Of a stretch of DNA of 64,000 nucleotides, positions 42,210-57,726 are shown piece after piece; position 1 is the stretch's first letter, and each line of letters starts with the position of its first letter. Under the pieces are notes generated by a model. The model was not told the origin of the DNA. It saw only the letters and a list, made by a program, of their open reading frames with translations, and did no database searches. A program made the position numbers and the translations under genes. Source of the stretch: Synergistota bacterium (GTDB lineage: Bacteria > Synergistota > GBS-1); NCBI GenBank assembly GCA_021159885.1, contig JAGHDO010000057.1, positions 1,418 through 65,417 on the forward strand. The letters run 5' to 3'.

Positions 42210-42830
42210 ATGAAAAGGATAATTTTAATAGTTGTGTGCGTTTTACTGGTTGTATTTGCTGCTTTGCCTGCTATTGGACAGCAGACGGGCAGCTCATCGG
42301 ACATCGAAAAGCTCGTTACAGAGCGTTATTTCGAGGGAGCGTATAACTACTATCAGGAGGGGCAATATGATATGGCCATCAAATACTACAATATTGTCTT
42401 AAGCAGAGATCCAAACCATGCAAAGGCTCTTTATTGGCTTGCAAGGCTTTATCAGGAACTTGGTTTATTTAAGCAGGCACTTGCAACTTGGCAGAGATTG
42501 CTTGTGGTGCAGCCCGATAATAAAATAGCTAAGTATTTTGCGAAGAAATGCAAGGGAATAATAAAGCATGGTGAGGAAGCCTATGATACTTATGAGCGCG
42601 CTTACGATGTTTACTTGAGGGGGAATAAGGAAAGAGCGTTAAGACTTTATGAAAAAGTTTGTGCATTAAGTCCGACTTTTGAGAAGGCCTTCCTGTGGGC
42701 CGGTAGAGTTTCCTTCGAGCTGGGTTATTACGATAAGGCGGAGTGGTATTTACAGAGAGCGTTGAATCTCGATCCGAAGGACAAGATAGCCAAATATCTG
42801 CTTAATCAGGTGAGAAAAGCTAAAAAATGA
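42210..42830 (+). CDS. Secreted TPR-repeat protein
   Basis: The 206-aa ORF has a signal peptide (MKRIILIVVCVLLVVFAALPAIGQ) followed by three or four TPR-like repeats. Its stop overlaps the next gene's start (ATGA). Confidence 0.75.
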   Translation: MKRIILIVVCVLLVVFAALPAIGQQTGSSSDIEKLVTERYFEGAYNYYQEGQYDMAIKYYNIVLSRDPNHAKALYWLARLYQELGLFKQALATWQRLLVVQPDNKIAKYFAKKCKGIIKHGEEAYDTYERAYDVYLRGNKERALRLYEKVCALSPTFEKAFLWAGRVSFELGYYDKAEWYLQRALNLDPKDKIAKYLLNQVRKAKK

Positions 42831-43582
42831 GGGGAGAACACCTGCTAAGACTTTTGTCGTTCTTAGCATTTGGGATAGTGATGGTTGCGGTTACTGCTTC
42901 TGCTTTTTCACTTCCTCTTCCCCCTTCGAATCTCGAGGCGGAAATAGTTTCTCCAACTCATATTAGACTTACTTGGTGGGATAATTCTACGGATGAAGAT
43001 GGATTCTTAATAGAGAGGAAAACATCTTCAAGTAGCTGGAAGCAAATGGGTTATACACCTCCTGATGTTAATGTTTATAACGATGAGGGCTTAACCCCTG
43101 GGGAAACATATTATTACAGGATAAGAGCTTATGAGGATACCTATTATACCGATTATTGTGAGCTCTCTCAGCCTGTGACTACCATAGGCTTTCCTGATCC
43201 GCCAACTGATCTCAGTGGTAAGGCACTTTCTTCCTCGGAAATAGAGCTTACTTGGGAAGATAGATCTGATAATGAGCTTGGTTTTATAGTCGAGAGAAAA
43301 TGGGGAAGAAACTGGATAGAGGTTGATGTACTTCCTCCCAATATGGAAAGTTTCATCGATACAGGACTCTCGGAATATACGAAATATACCTATAGGGTTT
43401 TGGCTTTCAATCAAGCGGGGAGAACTTCGTCAAATGAGGTGGAGGTCAGAACGCTTCCATCAGGAGGGGAGGTTATCTTAAGCGCTGGCTGTGCGCTTGG
43501 CGAGGGTAGTCTCGGGGTGGTACTTCTGTTTCCGATTATAGCTTTAGCTACTATTAGCTTGGGGAGATGGATCAAAAGATGA
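42827..43582 (+). CDS. Surface protein with two fibronectin type III domains and a Cys-containing C-terminal sorting-type tail
   Basis: The 251-aa ORF has a signal peptide and two FN3 repeats (LTWWDNSTDEDGFLIERK; ELTWEDRSDNELGFIVERK). The tail is SGGEVILSAGCALGEGSLGVVLLFPIIALATISLGRWIKR, a motif followed by a transmembrane helix and basic C-terminal residues. Confidence 0.75.
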   Translation: MRGEHLLRLLSFLAFGIVMVAVTASAFSLPLPPSNLEAEIVSPTHIRLTWWDNSTDEDGFLIERKTSSSSWKQMGYTPPDVNVYNDEGLTPGETYYYRIRAYEDTYYTDYCELSQPVTTIGFPDPPTDLSGKALSSSEIELTWEDRSDNELGFIVERKWGRNWIEVDVLPPNMESFIDTGLSEYTKYTYRVLAFNQAGRTSSNEVEVRTLPSGGEVILSAGCALGEGSLGVVLLFPIIALATISLGRWIKR

Positions 43583-45492
43583 GGTTGTTTTTAGCTATAC
43601 TCTTTTTGTTTATTATGACCAGTGCTGCGGTTGCAGATACATGGACCGTCATGATATATATGAATGCTGATAATAACTTGGAAGAGTATGCTATTTCCGA
43701 TTTTCTTGAGATGACCTCTGCTCCTCTTGGAGAGAATTCTAATCTTACGTTGGTCGTTCAATTTGATAGGGTTCCGGGATATGCGACCTCGGGTGATAAT
43801 TATGACGATTGGACGGGAACGTACAGGTTCGTTTTAACGCAAGGTATGACTCCTTTTTCTACTAATGCTGTTTCCTTTTTAGGGGAGGTAAACATGGGTT
43901 GTTCAGAAGCCCTTATAGACTTCGTTTCATGGGCTGAAGATAATTACCCTGCAGATCACTATGCTCTCGTACTTTGGAATCATGGAGATGGTTGGAGAGC
44001 AAGGAATCTTAGGGTTTCGTGGAAAAGCGCTGGGTACGATGAAACGAGCGACGATTATCTTTATATAGATGAGCTTCAAACCGCTCTCAGGATATTAAAA
44101 AATAGAGGTTATGAGATAGATCTTATTGGATTTGATGAGTGTCTAATGGCGATGGTTGAGGTTGCCTACGAGATTAGAAACTACGCTTCTTTTATGGTGG
44201 CCTCGGAGGAGGTGGAACCAGGAGAGGGATGGAAGTACGACGTTTTCTTAGCTGATCTCGCTAATGCGCTTGATAGTGGGGTAAGCGTTTCTCCCGAATA
44301 TCTGGGCAAGATGATAATAAATAGCTATATGGAGACGAGTGGAGCTACGCTTTCTCTTATAGATCTTGGAAGGATGGACGATATAGCTTCTCTCCTCAAG
44401 GAGCTTTCTTCTGCTCTGATAGAAAAGGTCCCGCTTGCAAGAGTTTCAAGGGCAAAGGCGACTTCCTTTTACCTCCCATCTGTGATAGATCTTTACTCTT
44501 TTTGTGCCTTTCTTGCTGGTTGGAGAACATCTGTTTCAGAACTTGCCTCTTCCTTATGCGATGCGATTAAAAGTGCCGTCCGAGAAAATTATTCAGCTTA
44601 TGGAAATGCTAATGGATTGAGCATATTTTTCCCAGATAGAGGAGAGGGGTCTTATGATAGATTTTATGATGATGGGAGACATGATTTTGCGAATTTCACG
44701 GGATGGGGAGACTTCTTGAAAGCCTATCTTAAAGAAACAAGAGATGTGGAAGAAATTAAGTGGGGGGACATGGAAATAGATGGAGTTTTGAGCGATTCTG
44801 ACATAGCAGGAGCTCTTGTTCTGCCTCCAGAGGACCTTTCAACTTCAGCCACGTCCTCGATTTCTGTTTATTTAAAGAACGATCAGGAATATCTTTATAT
44901 AGGTATCAGGAGCTATAATGACGAGAGCCTTGATATAGGAGATTCTCTGATAGTTTATCTTGATTCTAACGATGATGGTTCCTTTCCTTCAACGAGAGAC
45001 ACTGATGAAGGGGAGCTTAGGGTATTTTACGATGGGAGTCAATGGGTGGCTTACTTTTATCCGTTATGGTATGACTATTCTCAATATAGAGTTAGATCTC
45101 TCGATGCGGTTTTCTGTCCTGAGGTTGAAGCGGAAGGGGAATTAAGCGAGGATGGCTTCCTTGAGATGGAGGTAAAGATACCTCTGGGTACAGGAAGATT
45201 TCCTTTTAAGGCGGGATCTGAGATAGGATATTATCTCCAGGTCTATGACGGTGGAGAGGATGCGTTTGTTGGAGAATATCCCTTCCTTAACTTTTCTGAT
45301 ACTGCAAGCCTTGAGCCTTTAATGTATGGAGCTCTGAAGCTTGAGAAAAGCGGTGGTGGAGGAGGCGGCGGAGACGAGTTTATCGCATCGGCTGGTTGCT
45401 CGTCTGTTGAAGGAGGAAGCTTCCTTTACTTTGCTCCAATGCTTGTGGGATGGCTTCTGATACTGGAGGTGAGAAAAAAGTGGGAAGATTAA
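43567..45492 (+). CDS. Clostripain-family (MEROPS C11) cysteine peptidase with a C-terminal beta-rich domain, Gly7 linker and the same C-terminal tail
   Basis: The 641-aa ORF has a signal peptide and the C11 hallmark TWTVMIYMNADNNLE. A His/Cys dyad context is present (LWNHGDGW; IGFDECLMA). The tail is SGGGGGGGDEFIASAGCSSVEGGSFLYFAPMLVGWLLILEVRKKWED. Confidence 0.8.
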   Translation: MDQKMRLFLAILFLFIMTSAAVADTWTVMIYMNADNNLEEYAISDFLEMTSAPLGENSNLTLVVQFDRVPGYATSGDNYDDWTGTYRFVLTQGMTPFSTNAVSFLGEVNMGCSEALIDFVSWAEDNYPADHYALVLWNHGDGWRARNLRVSWKSAGYDETSDDYLYIDELQTALRILKNRGYEIDLIGFDECLMAMVEVAYEIRNYASFMVASEEVEPGEGWKYDVFLADLANALDSGVSVSPEYLGKMIINSYMETSGATLSLIDLGRMDDIASLLKELSSALIEKVPLARVSRAKATSFYLPSVIDLYSFCAFLAGWRTSVSELASSLCDAIKSAVRENYSAYGNANGLSIFFPDRGEGSYDRFYDDGRHDFANFTGWGDFLKAYLKETRDVEEIKWGDMEIDGVLSDSDIAGALVLPPEDLSTSATSSISVYLKNDQEYLYIGIRSYNDESLDIGDSLIVYLDSNDDGSFPSTRDTDEGELRVFYDGSQWVAYFYPLWYDYSQYRVRSLDAVFCPEVEAEGELSEDGFLEMEVKIPLGTGRFPFKAGSEIGYYLQVYDGGEDAFVGEYPFLNFSDTASLEPLMYGALKLEKSGGGGGGGDEFIASAGCSSVEGGSFLYFAPMLVGWLLILEVRKKWED

Positions 45493-46607
45493 GATCACTT
45501 ATCTTTATTTTCATCGCTCTTCTTTCTTTATCAACGCTATTATGCGGTTGTGGAGAGGGAGGAGGAAGTCCGTCAAGTCATATGCCTAAATGGACGATAA
45601 TGGTCTTCATGAACGATGCTACTTTAGCCTCTCGAGAATTAGCAGGTATAGATCTCTATGAGATGAGGCAAATAGGCTCAACGGATGATGTTAAAATACT
45701 TGTGCAACGCTGTTCTGAAACCGGCAGTGGAATGGTTCGCTATCTTGTCGAGAAGGGGAATATGGAACTTCTTGGGACTCTTTCGGATGCTTCACCTACC
45801 TCTTCAGATGCTCTTGCGTCTTTTGCTAATTGGTGCTTTGAAAACTATCCGGCTGAAAAATATCTCTTGATTCTTTGGAGTAGGGATGAGGATAACTCGT
45901 GGGATGGTTTAGTTAGCTGCCTTAATCTTTCTAAGGCTCTTTCTTCCTTTACGGAGAATGTAGATCTGCTCGTTTTAGACTCATCGGTTAAAGCAGAGCT
46001 TGAGCTTTTGGATGAGCTTAAGGGAAATGTGTCTGTAGTTGTGGCTCTTCAGGGTGCCATGCCCGATGATGGCTTTAACTATGAGAATATCTTTCAGAAA
46101 GTAGTTGCAAATCCTCATCATACCGCATTGGAAGTTTCGGGAAGTTTCGTTGAAGATTTTAAAAATCTCTATCAGGGGAGAAACGATGTGGCGATATCGG
46201 TTATCGATATAGCTAAGGTAGCGGATGTTGTAGGCTATCTTAATGACCTTGGTAGTGATCTTCTTAACTTTTCGGATACTTCTGCTCTCTGGGGGATTGT
46301 TCTTCAAACACAGTCTTATTTCATAACGCCTGGTGAGGAGGCTTCTTTCAGAGATCTTTATGATTTTTGCGAGAGGCTCGGAGCTTTGGATTTAAGCGAT
46401 TCTACCAAGGAGACGATAGAGAATCTAAAAAAATCGATAGAGGATATGGTCAAAAATGAATGGCATGTCTCAGATGGTATAGTTTCTGGATCTCGCGGCG
46501 TTTCACTCTATATATATACTCTTGGAAGTAGGGAAAGCGCCTATAGCGGTTTCACGATAGCTACGGATGCCTCAGATTGGTATGAGTTTGTTAAATCAAG
46601 ATTTTAA
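45480..46607 (+). CDS. Catalytically inactive C11-peptidase paralog with a lipoprotein-type signal
   Basis: Start is a GTG 8 nt after a GGAGGTGA RBS. The signal VGRLRSLIFIFIALLSLSTLLCGC is followed by KWTIMVFMND, which is homologous to the active paralog. The His position reads LWSRDED and the Cys position reads LDSS, so both catalytic residues are replaced. Confidence 0.7.
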   Translation: MGRLRSLIFIFIALLSLSTLLCGCGEGGGSPSSHMPKWTIMVFMNDATLASRELAGIDLYEMRQIGSTDDVKILVQRCSETGSGMVRYLVEKGNMELLGTLSDASPTSSDALASFANWCFENYPAEKYLLILWSRDEDNSWDGLVSCLNLSKALSSFTENVDLLVLDSSVKAELELLDELKGNVSVVVALQGAMPDDGFNYENIFQKVVANPHHTALEVSGSFVEDFKNLYQGRNDVAISVIDIAKVADVVGYLNDLGSDLLNFSDTSALWGIVLQTQSYFITPGEEASFRDLYDFCERLGALDLSDSTKETIENLKKSIEDMVKNEWHVSDGIVSGSRGVSLYIYTLGSRESAYSGFTIATDASDWYEFVKSRF

Positions 46608-56349: not shown

Positions 56350-57033
56350 ATGTTTTTCTTCTGGGATTGGACTTTCCTGCTATTAATTCCTGCACTTCTC
56401 TTGGCTGTTTACGCTCAAGCGAAGGTCCAATCCACCTATAGAAAATATGCTGCCGTTCCAGCTGCCGTAAGAAAACCAGCATGGATGGTAGCTCGTGAGA
56501 TCTTAGATAGAAACGGTTTGGGACATGTGGCTATAGAGATGATACCCGGAGAGCTTACGGATCACTATGATCCTCGGGCTAAGGTTTTAAGATTGTCGTC
56601 AGCGGTTTACAATAACCCATCAATAGCTGCTATAGGTATAGCTGCTCATGAAGCCGGTCATGCACTTCAACACGCTACAGGTTATCTTCCCCTTTCGATA
56701 AGAAACGCCATAGTTCCAGTGGCAAATATAGGGTCTCAACTTGCTATACCTTTCTTCTTCTTGGGATTTCTCTTTGGTATTCCAAGTCTTATGGATATAG
56801 GCATAGTTGCGTTTTCCGCTGCCGTTGTTTTCCAGCTTATAACTCTTCCGGTTGAATTCGATGCAAGCTCGAGGGCTATAAGGGTTCTTTACACGGGGGG
56901 ATTTGTTTCAAATAGAGAGAAAAAGGCAGTTGAGGAGGTTCTTGGAGCTGCTGCGTTAACCTATGTTGCTGCTACTGCTATGGCAGCGCTTCAGCTTATA
57001 AGGTTGCTTATTCTGAGGGGGGAGAGGGATTAA
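56350..57033 (+). CDS. YugP-family putative neutral zinc metallopeptidase (membrane)
   Basis: The 227-aa ORF has an HEAGHALQH (HExxH) motif and a typical YugP N-terminus (LLLIPALLLAVYAQAKV). Confidence 0.8.
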   Translation: MFFFWDWTFLLLIPALLLAVYAQAKVQSTYRKYAAVPAAVRKPAWMVAREILDRNGLGHVAIEMIPGELTDHYDPRAKVLRLSSAVYNNPSIAAIGIAAHEAGHALQHATGYLPLSIRNAIVPVANIGSQLAIPFFFLGFLFGIPSLMDIGIVAFSAAVVFQLITLPVEFDASSRAIRVLYTGGFVSNREKKAVEEVLGAAALTYVAATAMAALQLIRLLILRGERD

Positions 57034-57036
57034 AGG

Positions 57037-57726
57037 TTGCCTTTACTGATTTTATTCTTACTGTTTCTGTTTTTAGCACCTTGGATGCTTCTCCCCCTTC
57101 TTTTCTTTTTCGTCATACTCGTATTTCTTTTACCCTTTGGTTTTACGCTATACTCACTTTATACGATATTAACGGTACCTGTTGAAATATGGAGAATAGC
57201 AACGAATAAGAAACTTAGGAAAAATCACGCTCTCGAACATGCTACTATTAATGTTATAGAGGAGAAGTTTGGTCCCAGCAATCTCGCAGGACTTGCCAGG
57301 AAAGAAGGCTTTTATATAAAGGGCTTGGTAGACCCGGTTCTTCTTGAGGAAGCGGCACGTGTAGCTCTCTTTCGCCTGAGAAATGGAGAGAAAAGATTAG
57401 CGGTGCATAAGAGATGTGGTACCACCATAGCCATTATAAACTTTGTGGGGGCAGTTTCCTTTCTCGCACTTCTTTTCTTAACCGGGTACTTTACCATCTT
57501 GAACGTCATAATAGCGCTTCTCGTTTCCTATCTTATAGGCCCTCTCTTGAGCCCATGGGTTCAGCTTAGGTTTACGACACTACCAGAGGTAGACGACATG
57601 GAAATAGTTGGTGTGGAGTACAAAGGACCCGATTTGCGAACGTGGGGTCTGCCTTTCTTTTATATTCCTACAGACCTTTTCGTGAGGACCATTGAGAGAA
57701 AAGATTTGGGAAAGGTATTCACTTGA
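57037..57726 (+). CDS. Hypothetical membrane protein with an HxxEH (inverted-zincin-like) motif
   Basis: The 229-aa ORF has a TTG start. It has a very hydrophobic N-terminus, an NHALEHATINV motif, and a central transmembrane segment. Confidence 0.4.
   Translation: MPLLILFLLFLFLAPWMLLPLLFFFVILVFLLPFGFTLYSLYTILTVPVEIWRIATNKKLRKNHALEHATINVIEEKFGPSNLAGLARKEGFYIKGLVDPVLLEEAARVALFRLRNGEKRLAVHKRCGTTIAIINFVGAVSFLALLFLTGYFTILNVIIALLVSYLIGPLLSPWVQLRFTTLPEVDDMEIVGVEYKGPDLRTWGLPFFYIPTDLFVRTIERKDLGKVFT

What the first reader, a model, noticed from the sequence alone, without database searches (positions are those of the whole stretch)
43459..43582. Shared Cys-containing tripartite C-terminal tail on two adjacent proteins (candidate sorting signal)
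The FN3 protein ends ...SGGEVILSAGCALGEGSLGVVLLFPIIALATISLGRWIKR. The C11 peptidase ends ...SGGGGGGGDEFIASAGCSSVEGGSFLYFAPMLVGWLLILEVRKKWED (at 45343-45492). Both tails have [IF]-[LA]-SAGC-x2-x-EG-x-S, then an ~18-residue hydrophobic helix, then a basic cluster. This motif/TM/basic architecture is shared by the PEP-CTERM, LPXTG, MYXO-CTERM and GlyGly-CTERM sorting signals. The invariant Cys could be a lipidation or attachment site, as in MYXO-CTERM. Two unrelated domain families carrying near-identical tails side by side argues for a dedicated processing enzyme. That enzyme could be the neighbouring C11 peptidase itself or an intramembrane protease encoded elsewhere. From memory, a Cys-containing Synerg-CTERM class exists in TIGRFAMs, but I cannot confirm that this tail matches it.
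Basis: seen in the sequence. Interest (0 to 1): 0.7.

Follow-up and report, generated by a model that had tools for sequence, protein, structure and literature searches.

The report
Cysteine-containing C-terminal sorting tail, new variant
Two neighbouring secreted proteins of an uncultured hot-spring bacterium end in the same cysteine motif, membrane helix and basic tail, most likely a lineage-specific, uncatalogued version of a known kind of cell-surface sorting signal.

Summary
The FN3 protein (42827-43582) and the active C11 peptidase (43567-45492) both end in E-x-x-x-S-A-G-C, then a 6-7 residue polar spacer, a 17-18 residue hydrophobic helix and a basic end.

S-x-G-C is invariant in 16 orthologue tails, while the helix sequence drifts. 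The two copies use different codons. Each family's tail profile finds the other family's tail as its best non-self hit in the window (E about 0.002-0.003).

The window comes from a MAG labelled Synergistetes, in the GBS-1 hot-spring lineage. No NCBIfam sorting-signal model hits the window's two tails, although a positive control worked. Two orthologue tails just pass the JDVT-CTERM and MYXO-CTERM cut-offs.

It therefore belongs architecturally to the cysteine-containing tripartite signals described by Haft (2023). One of these (MYXO-CTERM/MrtX) was shown experimentally in 2025. These signals are cleaved by CPBP-type "myxosortases".

This tail differs from Synerg-CTERM by having a polar spacer, and from JDVT-CTERM by lacking the DP motif and an adjacent protease.

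I could not find the partner enzyme or count tail-bearing proteins per genome, because no complete proteome was reachable. I rate it a new variant of a known kind, of moderate interest.

The parts
42210..42830 (+). First cassette gene: secreted TPR-repeat protein (206 aa) with an N-terminal signal peptide. Its stop overlaps the FN3 start.
   Evidence: Pfam TPR families. Signal-like N-terminus. Conserved as first gene of the cassette in all related loci.
42827..43582 (+). Secreted protein with two FN3 domains (251 aa) carrying the tail.
   Evidence: PF00041. The AF2 model has two confident beta-sandwiches at residues 34-208, a disordered stretch at 215-231 and a terminal helix at 234-249. Orthologues of 60-76% identity all keep the tail.
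43466..43492 (+). FN3 tail signature motif G214-C222 (GEVILSAGC). Cys222 is at 43490-43492.
   Evidence: G214, E215, L218, S219, A220, G221 and C222 are invariant in 9 orthologues.
43493..43510 (+). FN3 tail polar spacer ALGEGS.
   Evidence: Read from the sequence. Orthologues carry E/R/N/D here. pLDDT is below 50.
43511..43564 (+). FN3 tail hydrophobic helix LGVVLLFPIIALATISLG (18 aa, with an internal Pro).
   Evidence: Hydropathy scan. AF2 helix at residues 234-249.
43565..43579 (+). FN3 tail basic end RWIKR. The stop codon is at 43580-43582.
43567..45492 (+). C11 (clostripain-family) cysteine peptidase, 641 aa (637 aa from the ATG at 43579 in the NCBI record). It has a signal peptide, an intact His/Cys dyad, an uncharacterised C-terminal domain and the tail.
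   Evidence: PF03415, 186 bits. 100% identical to J7M13_05460 of a Synergistetes MAG. LWNHGDG and FDECLMA align with the matching motifs of clostripain 9cip; that these hold its catalytic His and Cys is from memory.
45352..45372 (+). Poly-Gly linker (7 Gly) in front of the C11 tail. Orthologues have poly-Asp here.
45373..45399 (+). C11 tail signature motif D603-C611 (DEFIASAGC). The Cys is at 45397-45399.
   Evidence: The pattern E-F-[VI]-x-S-[SA]-G-C is kept in 7 orthologues.
45400..45420 (+). C11 tail polar spacer SSVEGGS.
45421..45471 (+). C11 tail hydrophobic helix FLYFAPMLVGWLLILEV (17 aa).
45472..45489 (+). C11 tail charged end RKKWED. The stop codon is at 45490-45492.
45450..46607 (+). 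Fourth cassette gene: a C11-like protein without the catalytic His and Cys, with a lipoprotein-like N-terminus (…LSTLLCGCGEGG). It has no tail. The real start is probably the GTG at 45479, behind a GGAGGTGA ribosome-binding site.
   Evidence: PF03415, 91 bits. In the alignment with the active paralogue, LWNHGDGW aligns to LW-SRDEDNSW and FDECLMA to LDSSVKA. DNA.

Best explanation
The tail is a lineage-specific C-terminal sorting and anchoring signal. [quoted passage not shown]

Shown: both proteins have N-terminal signal peptides. Each ends with a flexible linker, an invariant S-x-G-C motif, a short polar spacer, one hydrophobic helix and a basic end.

Inferred, by analogy with MYXO-CTERM/MrtX: after Sec export the helix holds the protein in the inner membrane with the basic end in the cytoplasm. 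The Cys side chain is then modified, probably with a lipid. A CPBP/Rce1-type glutamic intramembrane protease (a myxosortase-like enzyme, possibly an MrtS relative) encoded elsewhere in the genome removes the helix. The mature FN3 protein and the active C11 peptidase are then displayed on the cell envelope, perhaps after transfer by a type II secretion system.

The four translationally coupled genes are a TPR protein, the FN3 protein, the active C11 peptidase and an inactive C11-like lipoprotein. They probably form one surface proteolytic complex. That would explain why the two tail-bearing clients are neighbours.
For: - **Anatomy:** searches show the signal peptides, the disordered linker plus motif (pLDDT below 50 at residues 215-231) and the terminal helix.
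- **Constraint on the motif:** S-x-G-C is invariant in 16 tails from orthologues down to about 57% identity, while the helix sequence drifts. The two copies use different codons.
- **Cross-family significance:** the reciprocal tail profiles give E 0.002-0.003.
- **Similarity to known models:** 9 of 16 tails align end to end with JDVT-CTERM NF033191. One scores 27.6 bits against a cut-off of 27. One C11 orthologue tail passes TIGR03382 MYXO-CTERM (16.9 against 15.85).
- **Homologous peptidases elsewhere:** C11 homologues in other lineages carry other C-terminal sorting domains at the same position. P0083 passes TIGR03382 (17.5 bits). Several carry the T9SS domain PF18962.
- **A parallel case:** in locus L005 a C11 homologue and an adjacent tannase both end in GGC-spacer-helix-basic tails. 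They lie next to a prepilin-type gene.
- **Literature:** Haft 2023 (bioRxiv 10.1101/2023.06.07.544157) defines the class and predicts lineage-specific forms. Guo, Haft and Wall 2025 (PMC11980579) showed MrtX cleaves MYXO-CTERM in a Cys-dependent way.
Against: - No catalogued model hits the two window tails themselves, even at E up to 10.
- One of ten region-wise shuffled tails also reached 17 bits on JDVT-CTERM. Sub-threshold hits are therefore partly compositional.
- No CPBP protease or T2SS gene was found in the window or in ten related loci.
- Only the two cassette proteins are known to carry this tail. A search of 1.84 billion representatives found no third family. That search could not have seen one, because cross-family scores are only about 13 bits.
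- The charged spacer between the Cys and the helix is unlike Synerg-CTERM and the other signals cut by intramembrane enzymes.
- Cleavage and lipidation are untested.
Confidence: 0.6

Rival explanations
1. The tails are permanent C-terminal membrane anchors and are never cleaved. The conserved Cys motif next to the membrane, together with the helix, lets the FN3 protein and the C11 peptidase pair with each other. This could be through an intermolecular disulfide or metal bridge, or through helix packing at the outer face of the inner membrane.
For: So far only these two co-operonic proteins carry the tail. The cassette is strictly conserved and translationally coupled. No sorting enzyme lies nearby. 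Each tail family keeps its own helix features, for example G-W in the C11 tails and Pro in the FN3 tails, as expected for specific helix packing.
Against: The architecture follows the grammar of a sorting signal: a low-complexity linker, a small-residue motif ending in Cys, and a basic end. It overlaps catalogued Cys signals in HMM space. Homologous C11 peptidases elsewhere carry recognised sorting domains at the same place. The helix sequence drifts more than the motif does.
Confidence: 0.2
2. This is a dedicated, operon-encoded system. The active C11 peptidase belongs to clan CD, the clan of the GPI transamidase Gpi8 and the T9SS sortase PorU. Possibly helped by its inactive paralogue, it cleaves at the S-A-G-C small-residue site and transfers the protein to an envelope acceptor.
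For: The tail reads like a GPI-type signal, with small omega-site residues, a 6-7 residue polar spacer and a hydrophobic end. A polar spacer is expected when the active site sits above the membrane, not inside it (reasoning in Haft 2023). When a signal has few clients per genome, its protease is often in the same operon (Haft 2023). Here the only protease in the operon is the C11 peptidase.
Against: There is no precedent for a C11 sortase. Clostripain-family enzymes cut after Arg or Lys (established knowledge), and no conserved Arg or Lys lies near the motif. Distant C11 homologues with Cys tails appear to be clients of a wider system, since an adjacent tannase has the same kind of tail. The number of clients per genome is unknown.
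Confidence: 0.08
3. It is a sorting signal, but for another enzyme class such as rhombosortase, exosortase/archaeosortase or sortase.
For: There are weak hits to GlyGly-CTERM (about 11 bits). The partner enzyme has not been found.
Against: There is no PEP, GG-helix or LPXTG motif. The invariant residue is Cys, the hallmark of myxosortase clients. All hits to GlyGly-CTERM are below its cut-off.
Confidence: 0.07
4. It is a chance resemblance, or the remnant of a local duplication of a terminal exon-like segment, with no shared function.
For: The two tails are only about 26% identical overall, and they lie in adjacent genes.
Against: The reciprocal profile hits are significant. The motif is invariant across orthologues of both families. 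Codons differ between the two genes.
Confidence: 0.03

Closest known systems
Synerg-CTERM (TIGR04564) with predicted sorting enzyme MrtS (NF040589) and a divergent T2SS, order Synergistales
   Same: It is a C-terminal tripartite signal with a Ser/Gly-type motif ending in a single invariant Cys. A Pro sits inside the helix in most FN3 tails. The host MAGs are labelled Synergistetes.
   Different: The model does not hit the window tails. The best orthologue scores 14.7 bits against a cut-off of 22.5. A 6-7 residue spacer with charged residues follows the Cys, whereas Synerg-CTERM has none. There is an extra conserved upstream part (E-x-x-x-S). The lineage is GBS-1, not the listed Synergistales genera. 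MrtS and the T2SS are unverified.
JDVT-CTERM (NF033191) with MrtJ (NF033192), Pseudomonadota
   Same: It has a single Cys, similar length and conserved positions beyond the Cys. It is the best-matching model: 9 of 16 tails align end to end and one reaches 27.6 bits against a cut-off of 27. Few clients are known.
   Different: There is no DP motif nine residues after the Cys. An Asp at +6 to +9 occurs in 5 of 9 FN3 tails and is never followed by Pro. No adjacent CPBP protease is present. The phylum is different, and there are at least two clients side by side instead of about one per genome.
MYXO-CTERM (TIGR03901/TIGR03382) with myxosortase MrtX, Myxococcota
   Same: It has an invariant Cys in a Gly/Ser context, a helix and a basic end. 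One C11 orthologue tail passes TIGR03382. This is the member with an experimentally shown mechanism: Cys-dependent cleavage by a CPBP protease, with T2SS-dependent surface display.
   Different: The tail has a single Cys, not GCGC. Pro and charged residues occur in or next to the helix, which MYXO-CTERM lacks. The window tails give no hit.
GPI-anchor signal with Gpi8 (C13), and T9SS C-terminal domain with PorU: the clan CD transpeptidase systems
   Same: It has a small-residue cleavage-site-like motif, a polar spacer and a hydrophobic end. A clan CD peptidase is encoded in the same operon.
   Different: The peptidase family is different (C11). A basic end is present. There is no evidence for transpeptidation. 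This is an analogy only.

Membership tests
Cys-containing tripartite C-terminal sorting signals (myxosortase-client class, Haft 2023) | The signal lies at the extreme C-terminus of a protein that also has an N-terminal signal peptide. | tested here: met
Cys-containing tripartite C-terminal sorting signals (myxosortase-client class, Haft 2023) | A short signature motif contains an invariant Cys. | tested here: met
   S-x-G-C is invariant in 16 of 16 tails.
Cys-containing tripartite C-terminal sorting signals (myxosortase-client class, Haft 2023) | A hydrophobic transmembrane segment is followed by a basic cluster. | tested here: met
   A 17-18 residue hydrophobic stretch is followed by RWIKR or RKKWED. 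AF2 predicts a helix.
Cys-containing tripartite C-terminal sorting signals (myxosortase-client class, Haft 2023) | The signal is shared by proteins that are otherwise not homologous. | tested here: met
   The FN3 protein and the C11 peptidase carry it. Only two families are known, and no third was found.
Cys-containing tripartite C-terminal sorting signals (myxosortase-client class, Haft 2023) | A cognate CPBP/Rce1-type intramembrane protease is present in the same genome. | not testable with these tools
   None lies in the 64 kb window or in ten related 15-20 kb loci. Whole proteomes of the lineage could not be fetched.
Synerg-CTERM (TIGR04564) | The HMM score reaches the curated cut-off of 22.5 bits. 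| tested here: not met
   The window tails give no hit at E up to 10. The best orthologue scores 14.7 bits. Synthetic positive controls scored 49 and 37 bits.
Synerg-CTERM (TIGR04564) | [quoted passage not shown] | tested here: not met
   Six to seven polar residues, including E, R, K, D or N, follow the Cys.
Synerg-CTERM (TIGR04564) | An invariant Pro lies in a Leu-rich stretch of the helix. | tested here: inconclusive
   A Pro in the helix is present in 8 of 9 FN3 tails and 3 of 7 C11 tails, at variable positions.
Synerg-CTERM (TIGR04564) | Co-occurrence with MrtS (NF040589) and the Synerg-type T2SS (NF041616-NF041619). | not testable with these tools
   No proteome access. None of these genes lies in the window.
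JDVT-CTERM (NF033191) | The HMM score reaches the curated cut-off of 27 bits. | tested here: not met
   The window tails give no hit. Among orthologues, one of the ten tails scored individually reaches the cut-off (27.6 bits); the other listed hits score 8-19 bits. A shuffled control reached 17 bits.
JDVT-CTERM (NF033191) | A nearly invariant Asp-Pro lies nine residues after the Cys. | tested here: not met
   No DP occurs in any of the 16 tails.
JDVT-CTERM (NF033191) | The client gene is usually adjacent to its CPBP protease MrtJ. | tested here: not met
   No PF02517 gene lies within 10 kb in any related locus.
MYXO-CTERM (TIGR03901 / TIGR03382) | The HMM score reaches the cut-off (20 or 15.85 bits). 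| tested here: not met
   The window tails give no hit. One C11 orthologue scores 16.9 bits on TIGR03382. Hits on TIGR03901 are at most 14.6 bits.
MYXO-CTERM (TIGR03901 / TIGR03382) | The helix contains no charged or Pro residues, and a second Cys is frequent. | tested here: not met
   Pro is common in the helix. All but one of the 16 tails have a single Cys before the helix.

The most novel reading that the evidence does not exclude
The tail is not a client signal of a housekeeping myxosortase. Instead it is the recognition signal of a self-contained four-gene surface module. In this reading the operon's own clan CD (C11) peptidase, with its inactive paralogue, cleaves at the S-A-G-C site above the membrane and anchors both itself and the FN3 partner. 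That would be a bacterial counterpart of GPI-transamidase or PorU-type sorting, using a clostripain-family enzyme.
Probability: 0.08. Interest if true: 0.75.

Novelty: new variant of a known kind. Interest (0 to 1): 0.35.

Why it matters
Cysteine-containing C-terminal sorting signals and their CPBP "myxosortases" were only defined in 2023 and shown experimentally in 2025. Their catalogue is known to be incomplete.

This tail adds a form from a deep-branching thermophilic lineage that current annotation models miss; the only public name on record for this peptidase is "hypothetical protein". It has a charged spacer between the Cys and the helix, which bears on where the cleavage enzyme's active site sits.

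It also marks a conserved four-gene surface protease module (TPR protein, FN3 protein, active C11 peptidase, inactive C11-like protein) as envelope-anchored. A lineage-specific model would improve the annotation of secreted proteins in these genomes.

The gain is incremental, not conceptual, unless the operon's own C11 peptidase proves to be the sorting enzyme.

Tried and rejected
- **Exact look-ups:** the window's FN3 protein and P0018 are not on record in the contig index. I could not get precomputed annotation for the window or walk along its genome.
- **Joint tail profile against 1.84 billion representatives:** this returned only the two known clusters and a junk repeat translation (P0138). 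It says nothing about a third family, because cross-family scores are only about 13 bits.
- **Third homologue search with the tail alignment:** two calls failed on parameter limits. The valid call found nothing at E up to 10, so the search was wasted.
- **Genome scan with the full FN3 alignment:** this found only two true orthologue loci (GBS-1 and DJKA70_ANT-KO_bin.39) and 68 unrelated FN3 proteins.
- **Degenerate DNA patterns for the motif:** I considered scanning collections with these. I rejected it because 21-27 bits of information would give thousands to hundreds of thousands of chance matches.
- **Partner enzyme:** I searched the window by transmembrane-segment count, the EExxxR motif and prepilin motifs. 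I also checked the Pfam-annotated neighbourhoods of ten related loci and four distant ones. No CPBP protease, rhomboid, exosortase or T2SS gene lies next to the GBS-1 cassette.
- **Canonical lipobox reading of L-S-A-G-C:** rejected. The motif precedes the hydrophobic segment instead of following it, and position -3 is Ser.
- **Recent duplication or gene conversion:** rejected because the codons differ.
- **Unused:** the metagenome scan, for lack of a query that could separate this lineage from the background.

Full report
**What is there**

The window carries four tightly packed, same-strand genes.
- A secreted TPR protein lies at 42210-42830.
- A protein with two FN3 domains lies at 42827-43582.
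- A clostripain-family (C11) peptidase lies at 43567-45492.
- A second C11-like protein lies at 45450 (or 45479) to 46607.

The FN3 protein ends ...GEVILSAGC-ALGEGS-LGVVLLFPIIALATISLG-RWIKR. The peptidase ends ...GGGGGGG-DEFIASAGC-SSVEGGS-FLYFAPMLVGWLLILEV-RKKWED. A six-frame scan finds no other ORF in the 64 kb with a small-residue/Cys motif followed by a helix and a basic end. All four proteins start with signal-peptide-like N-termini.

**Is it more than chance?**

I built a profile from the tails of nine FN3 orthologues only. Among 676 six-frame ORFs of the window it ranks the C11 tail as best non-self hit (12.8 bits, E 0.0033). A profile from seven C11 orthologue tails finds the FN3 tail in the same way (13.2 bits, E 0.002).

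In 16 tails from orthologues down to about 57% identity, S-x-G-C is invariant. A Glu four residues upstream of the Ser is at least 90% conserved, while the helix sequence drifts. The motif uses different codons in the two genes: agc gct ggc tgt against tcg gct ggt tgc. The similarity is therefore maintained at the peptide level and is not a recent duplication.

"Near-identical" overstates the case.

**Anatomy**

An AlphaFold2 model of the FN3 protein was built from a nine-sequence alignment (mean pLDDT 84.6).
- Two confident beta-sandwiches span residues 34-208.
- Residues 215-231, the motif plus spacer, have pLDDT below 50.
- A terminal helix spans residues 234-249.

In the peptidase the motif follows a run of seven Gly, which is poly-Asp in orthologues. 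The motif therefore sits in a flexible linker just outside a single C-terminal membrane helix.

**Organism and context**

The peptidase is 100% identical to J7M13_05460 of a MAG named "Synergistetes bacterium". FN3 orthologues come from MAGs with that name and from Great Boiling Spring samples. The species-representative genomes that carry the cassette are "bacterium GBS-1", which is unclassified in NCBI, and one further MAG.

In ten related loci the cassette TPR-FN3-C11-C11-like is always present. It always lies between dksA/gltX and the homoserine dehydrogenase gene. No CPBP protease, rhomboid, exosortase or T2SS gene lies within 10 kb. The window itself has no such gene either.

**Comparison with catalogued signals**

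The NCBIfam scan gives no sorting-domain hit for the two proteins or their isolated tails, even at E up to 10. The library does hold the relevant models and can detect short tails. Two synthetic Synerg-CTERM-like sequences that I wrote scored 49 and 37 bits on TIGR04564, whose cut-off is 22.5.

Among the 16 orthologue tails, nine align end to end with JDVT-CTERM (NF033191).
- One FN3 orthologue (P0008) reaches 27.6 bits against a cut-off of 27.
- One C11 orthologue (P0020) passes TIGR03382, a MYXO-CTERM model, at 16.9 bits against 15.85.
- The best score on Synerg-CTERM is 14.7 bits.

As a control I shuffled residues within each region of two tails. One of the ten shuffles still gave 17 bits on JDVT-CTERM, and none reached a cut-off. 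The sub-threshold hits are therefore partly compositional. The tails fall in the same architectural class but are not members of any catalogued family.

**What the literature says**

Haft (bioRxiv 10.1101/2023.06.07.544157) describes four tripartite C-terminal signals with an invariant Cys. He predicts a cognate CPBP/Rce1-type intramembrane protease for each and links them to type II secretion.
- Synerg-CTERM is a Ser/Gly cluster ending in Cys, with no spacer and a Pro in a Leu-rich helix. It is found in Synergistales.
- JDVT-CTERM has a DP motif nine residues after the Cys. It occurs about once per genome and usually next to its protease.

The paper also states that lineage-specific forms diverge and need custom models. 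Guo, Haft and Wall (mBio 2025, PMC11980579) showed that MrtX cleaves MYXO-CTERM in a Cys-dependent way, including in E. coli.

The present tail differs from Synerg-CTERM by a 6-7 residue spacer with charged residues and by a conserved upstream part. It differs from JDVT-CTERM by lacking the DP motif and an adjacent protease. It differs from MYXO-CTERM by having a single Cys and Pro in the helix.

**Supporting context from homologues**

C11 peptidases in other lineages carry other C-terminal sorting domains at the same position. Examples are the T9SS domain PF18962 and a tail that passes TIGR03382 in P0083.

The closest non-orthologous homologues (P0028, P0029) end in GGC-spacer-helix-RRR tails. 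They lie directly downstream of a gene with a prepilin-type N-terminal domain (TIGR02532, 21 bits against a cut-off of 16.3). In locus L005 the next gene is a subtype B tannase (583 bits) with the same kind of tail. Cys tails with a spacer, missed by current models, thus occur on several secreted enzymes, and C11 peptidases are typical carriers.

**Mechanism**

My best explanation has confidence 0.6. After Sec export the helix holds each protein in the inner membrane. The Cys is then modified, a myxosortase-like CPBP protease encoded elsewhere removes the helix, and the FN3 protein and active peptidase are displayed on the envelope. The anatomy and the conservation are shown. Modification, cleavage, the enzyme and the final location are inferred by analogy.

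The rivals are as follows.
- The tails may be uncleaved anchors whose Cys motif pairs the two cassette proteins (0.2).
- The operon's own clan CD peptidase may do the processing, in the manner of Gpi8 or PorU (0.08).
- Another class of sorting enzyme may be involved (0.07).
- The resemblance may be chance or a duplication remnant (0.03).

**Limits**

I could not reach a complete proteome of the lineage. The number of tail-bearing proteins per genome and the presence of a myxosortase are therefore open. The library-wide profile search found only the two known families. With cross-family scores near 13 bits, it could not have detected a third.

**Verdict**

The interpretation as a Cys-containing sorting signal is supported at the level of class and architecture. 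Membership in Synerg-CTERM, JDVT-CTERM or MYXO-CTERM was tested and not met for the window's copies. It is a new variant of a known kind, of moderate interest.

Noticed in passing
window 45450-46607 (+): The fourth cassette gene encodes a C11-like protein that has lost both catalytic residues. Aligned with its active neighbour, LWNHGDGW becomes LW-SRDEDNSW and FDECLMA becomes LDSSVKA. It has a lipoprotein-like N-terminus (…LSTLLCGCGEGG). It looks like a pseudo-peptidase partner and is conserved in all related loci.
   Followed up: partly
window 45466-45492: A GGAGGTGA Shine-Dalgarno sequence lies 5 nt upstream of the GTG at 45479. This suggests that the pseudo-peptidase gene really starts inside the last 14 nt of the tail-coding region of the upstream gene. 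The TPR/FN3 junction (42827-42830) and the FN3/C11 junction (43579-43582) are ATGA overlaps. The four genes therefore appear to be translationally coupled.
   Followed up: partly
L005 9179-13680 and L006 320-2992: In another lineage a prepilin-type (pseudopilin-like) gene, a C11 peptidase and a subtype B tannase lie side by side. The peptidase and the tannase both end in GGC-spacer-helix-basic tails, which score below cut-off on all catalogued Cys-signal models. This may be a second uncatalogued variant linked to type II secretion.
   Followed up: partly
window 43567-45492, residues about 390-590 of the peptidase: A C-terminal domain of about 200 residues follows the C11 domain and has no Pfam hit at E up to 0.01. 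It is shared with the distant homologues P0027-P0029, which add Ig-like or PKD domains. Its fold and function were not examined.
   Followed up: no
window 56350-57726 (+): Two adjacent genes encode small membrane proteins with four predicted helices each. By eye, one looks like a zinc metallopeptidase and the other is unknown, with NHALEHAT and HKRCGTT motifs. Neither looks like a CPBP protease. Neither was scanned against family libraries.
   Followed up: no
P0138: The only 'third' hit of the tail profile in the 1.84-billion-protein library is a 452-residue translation of a tandem DNA repeat. Its repeat unit contains ...GSSAGRALNYGSLSIML. It is an artefact of gene calling, not a tail-bearing protein.
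   Followed up: yes
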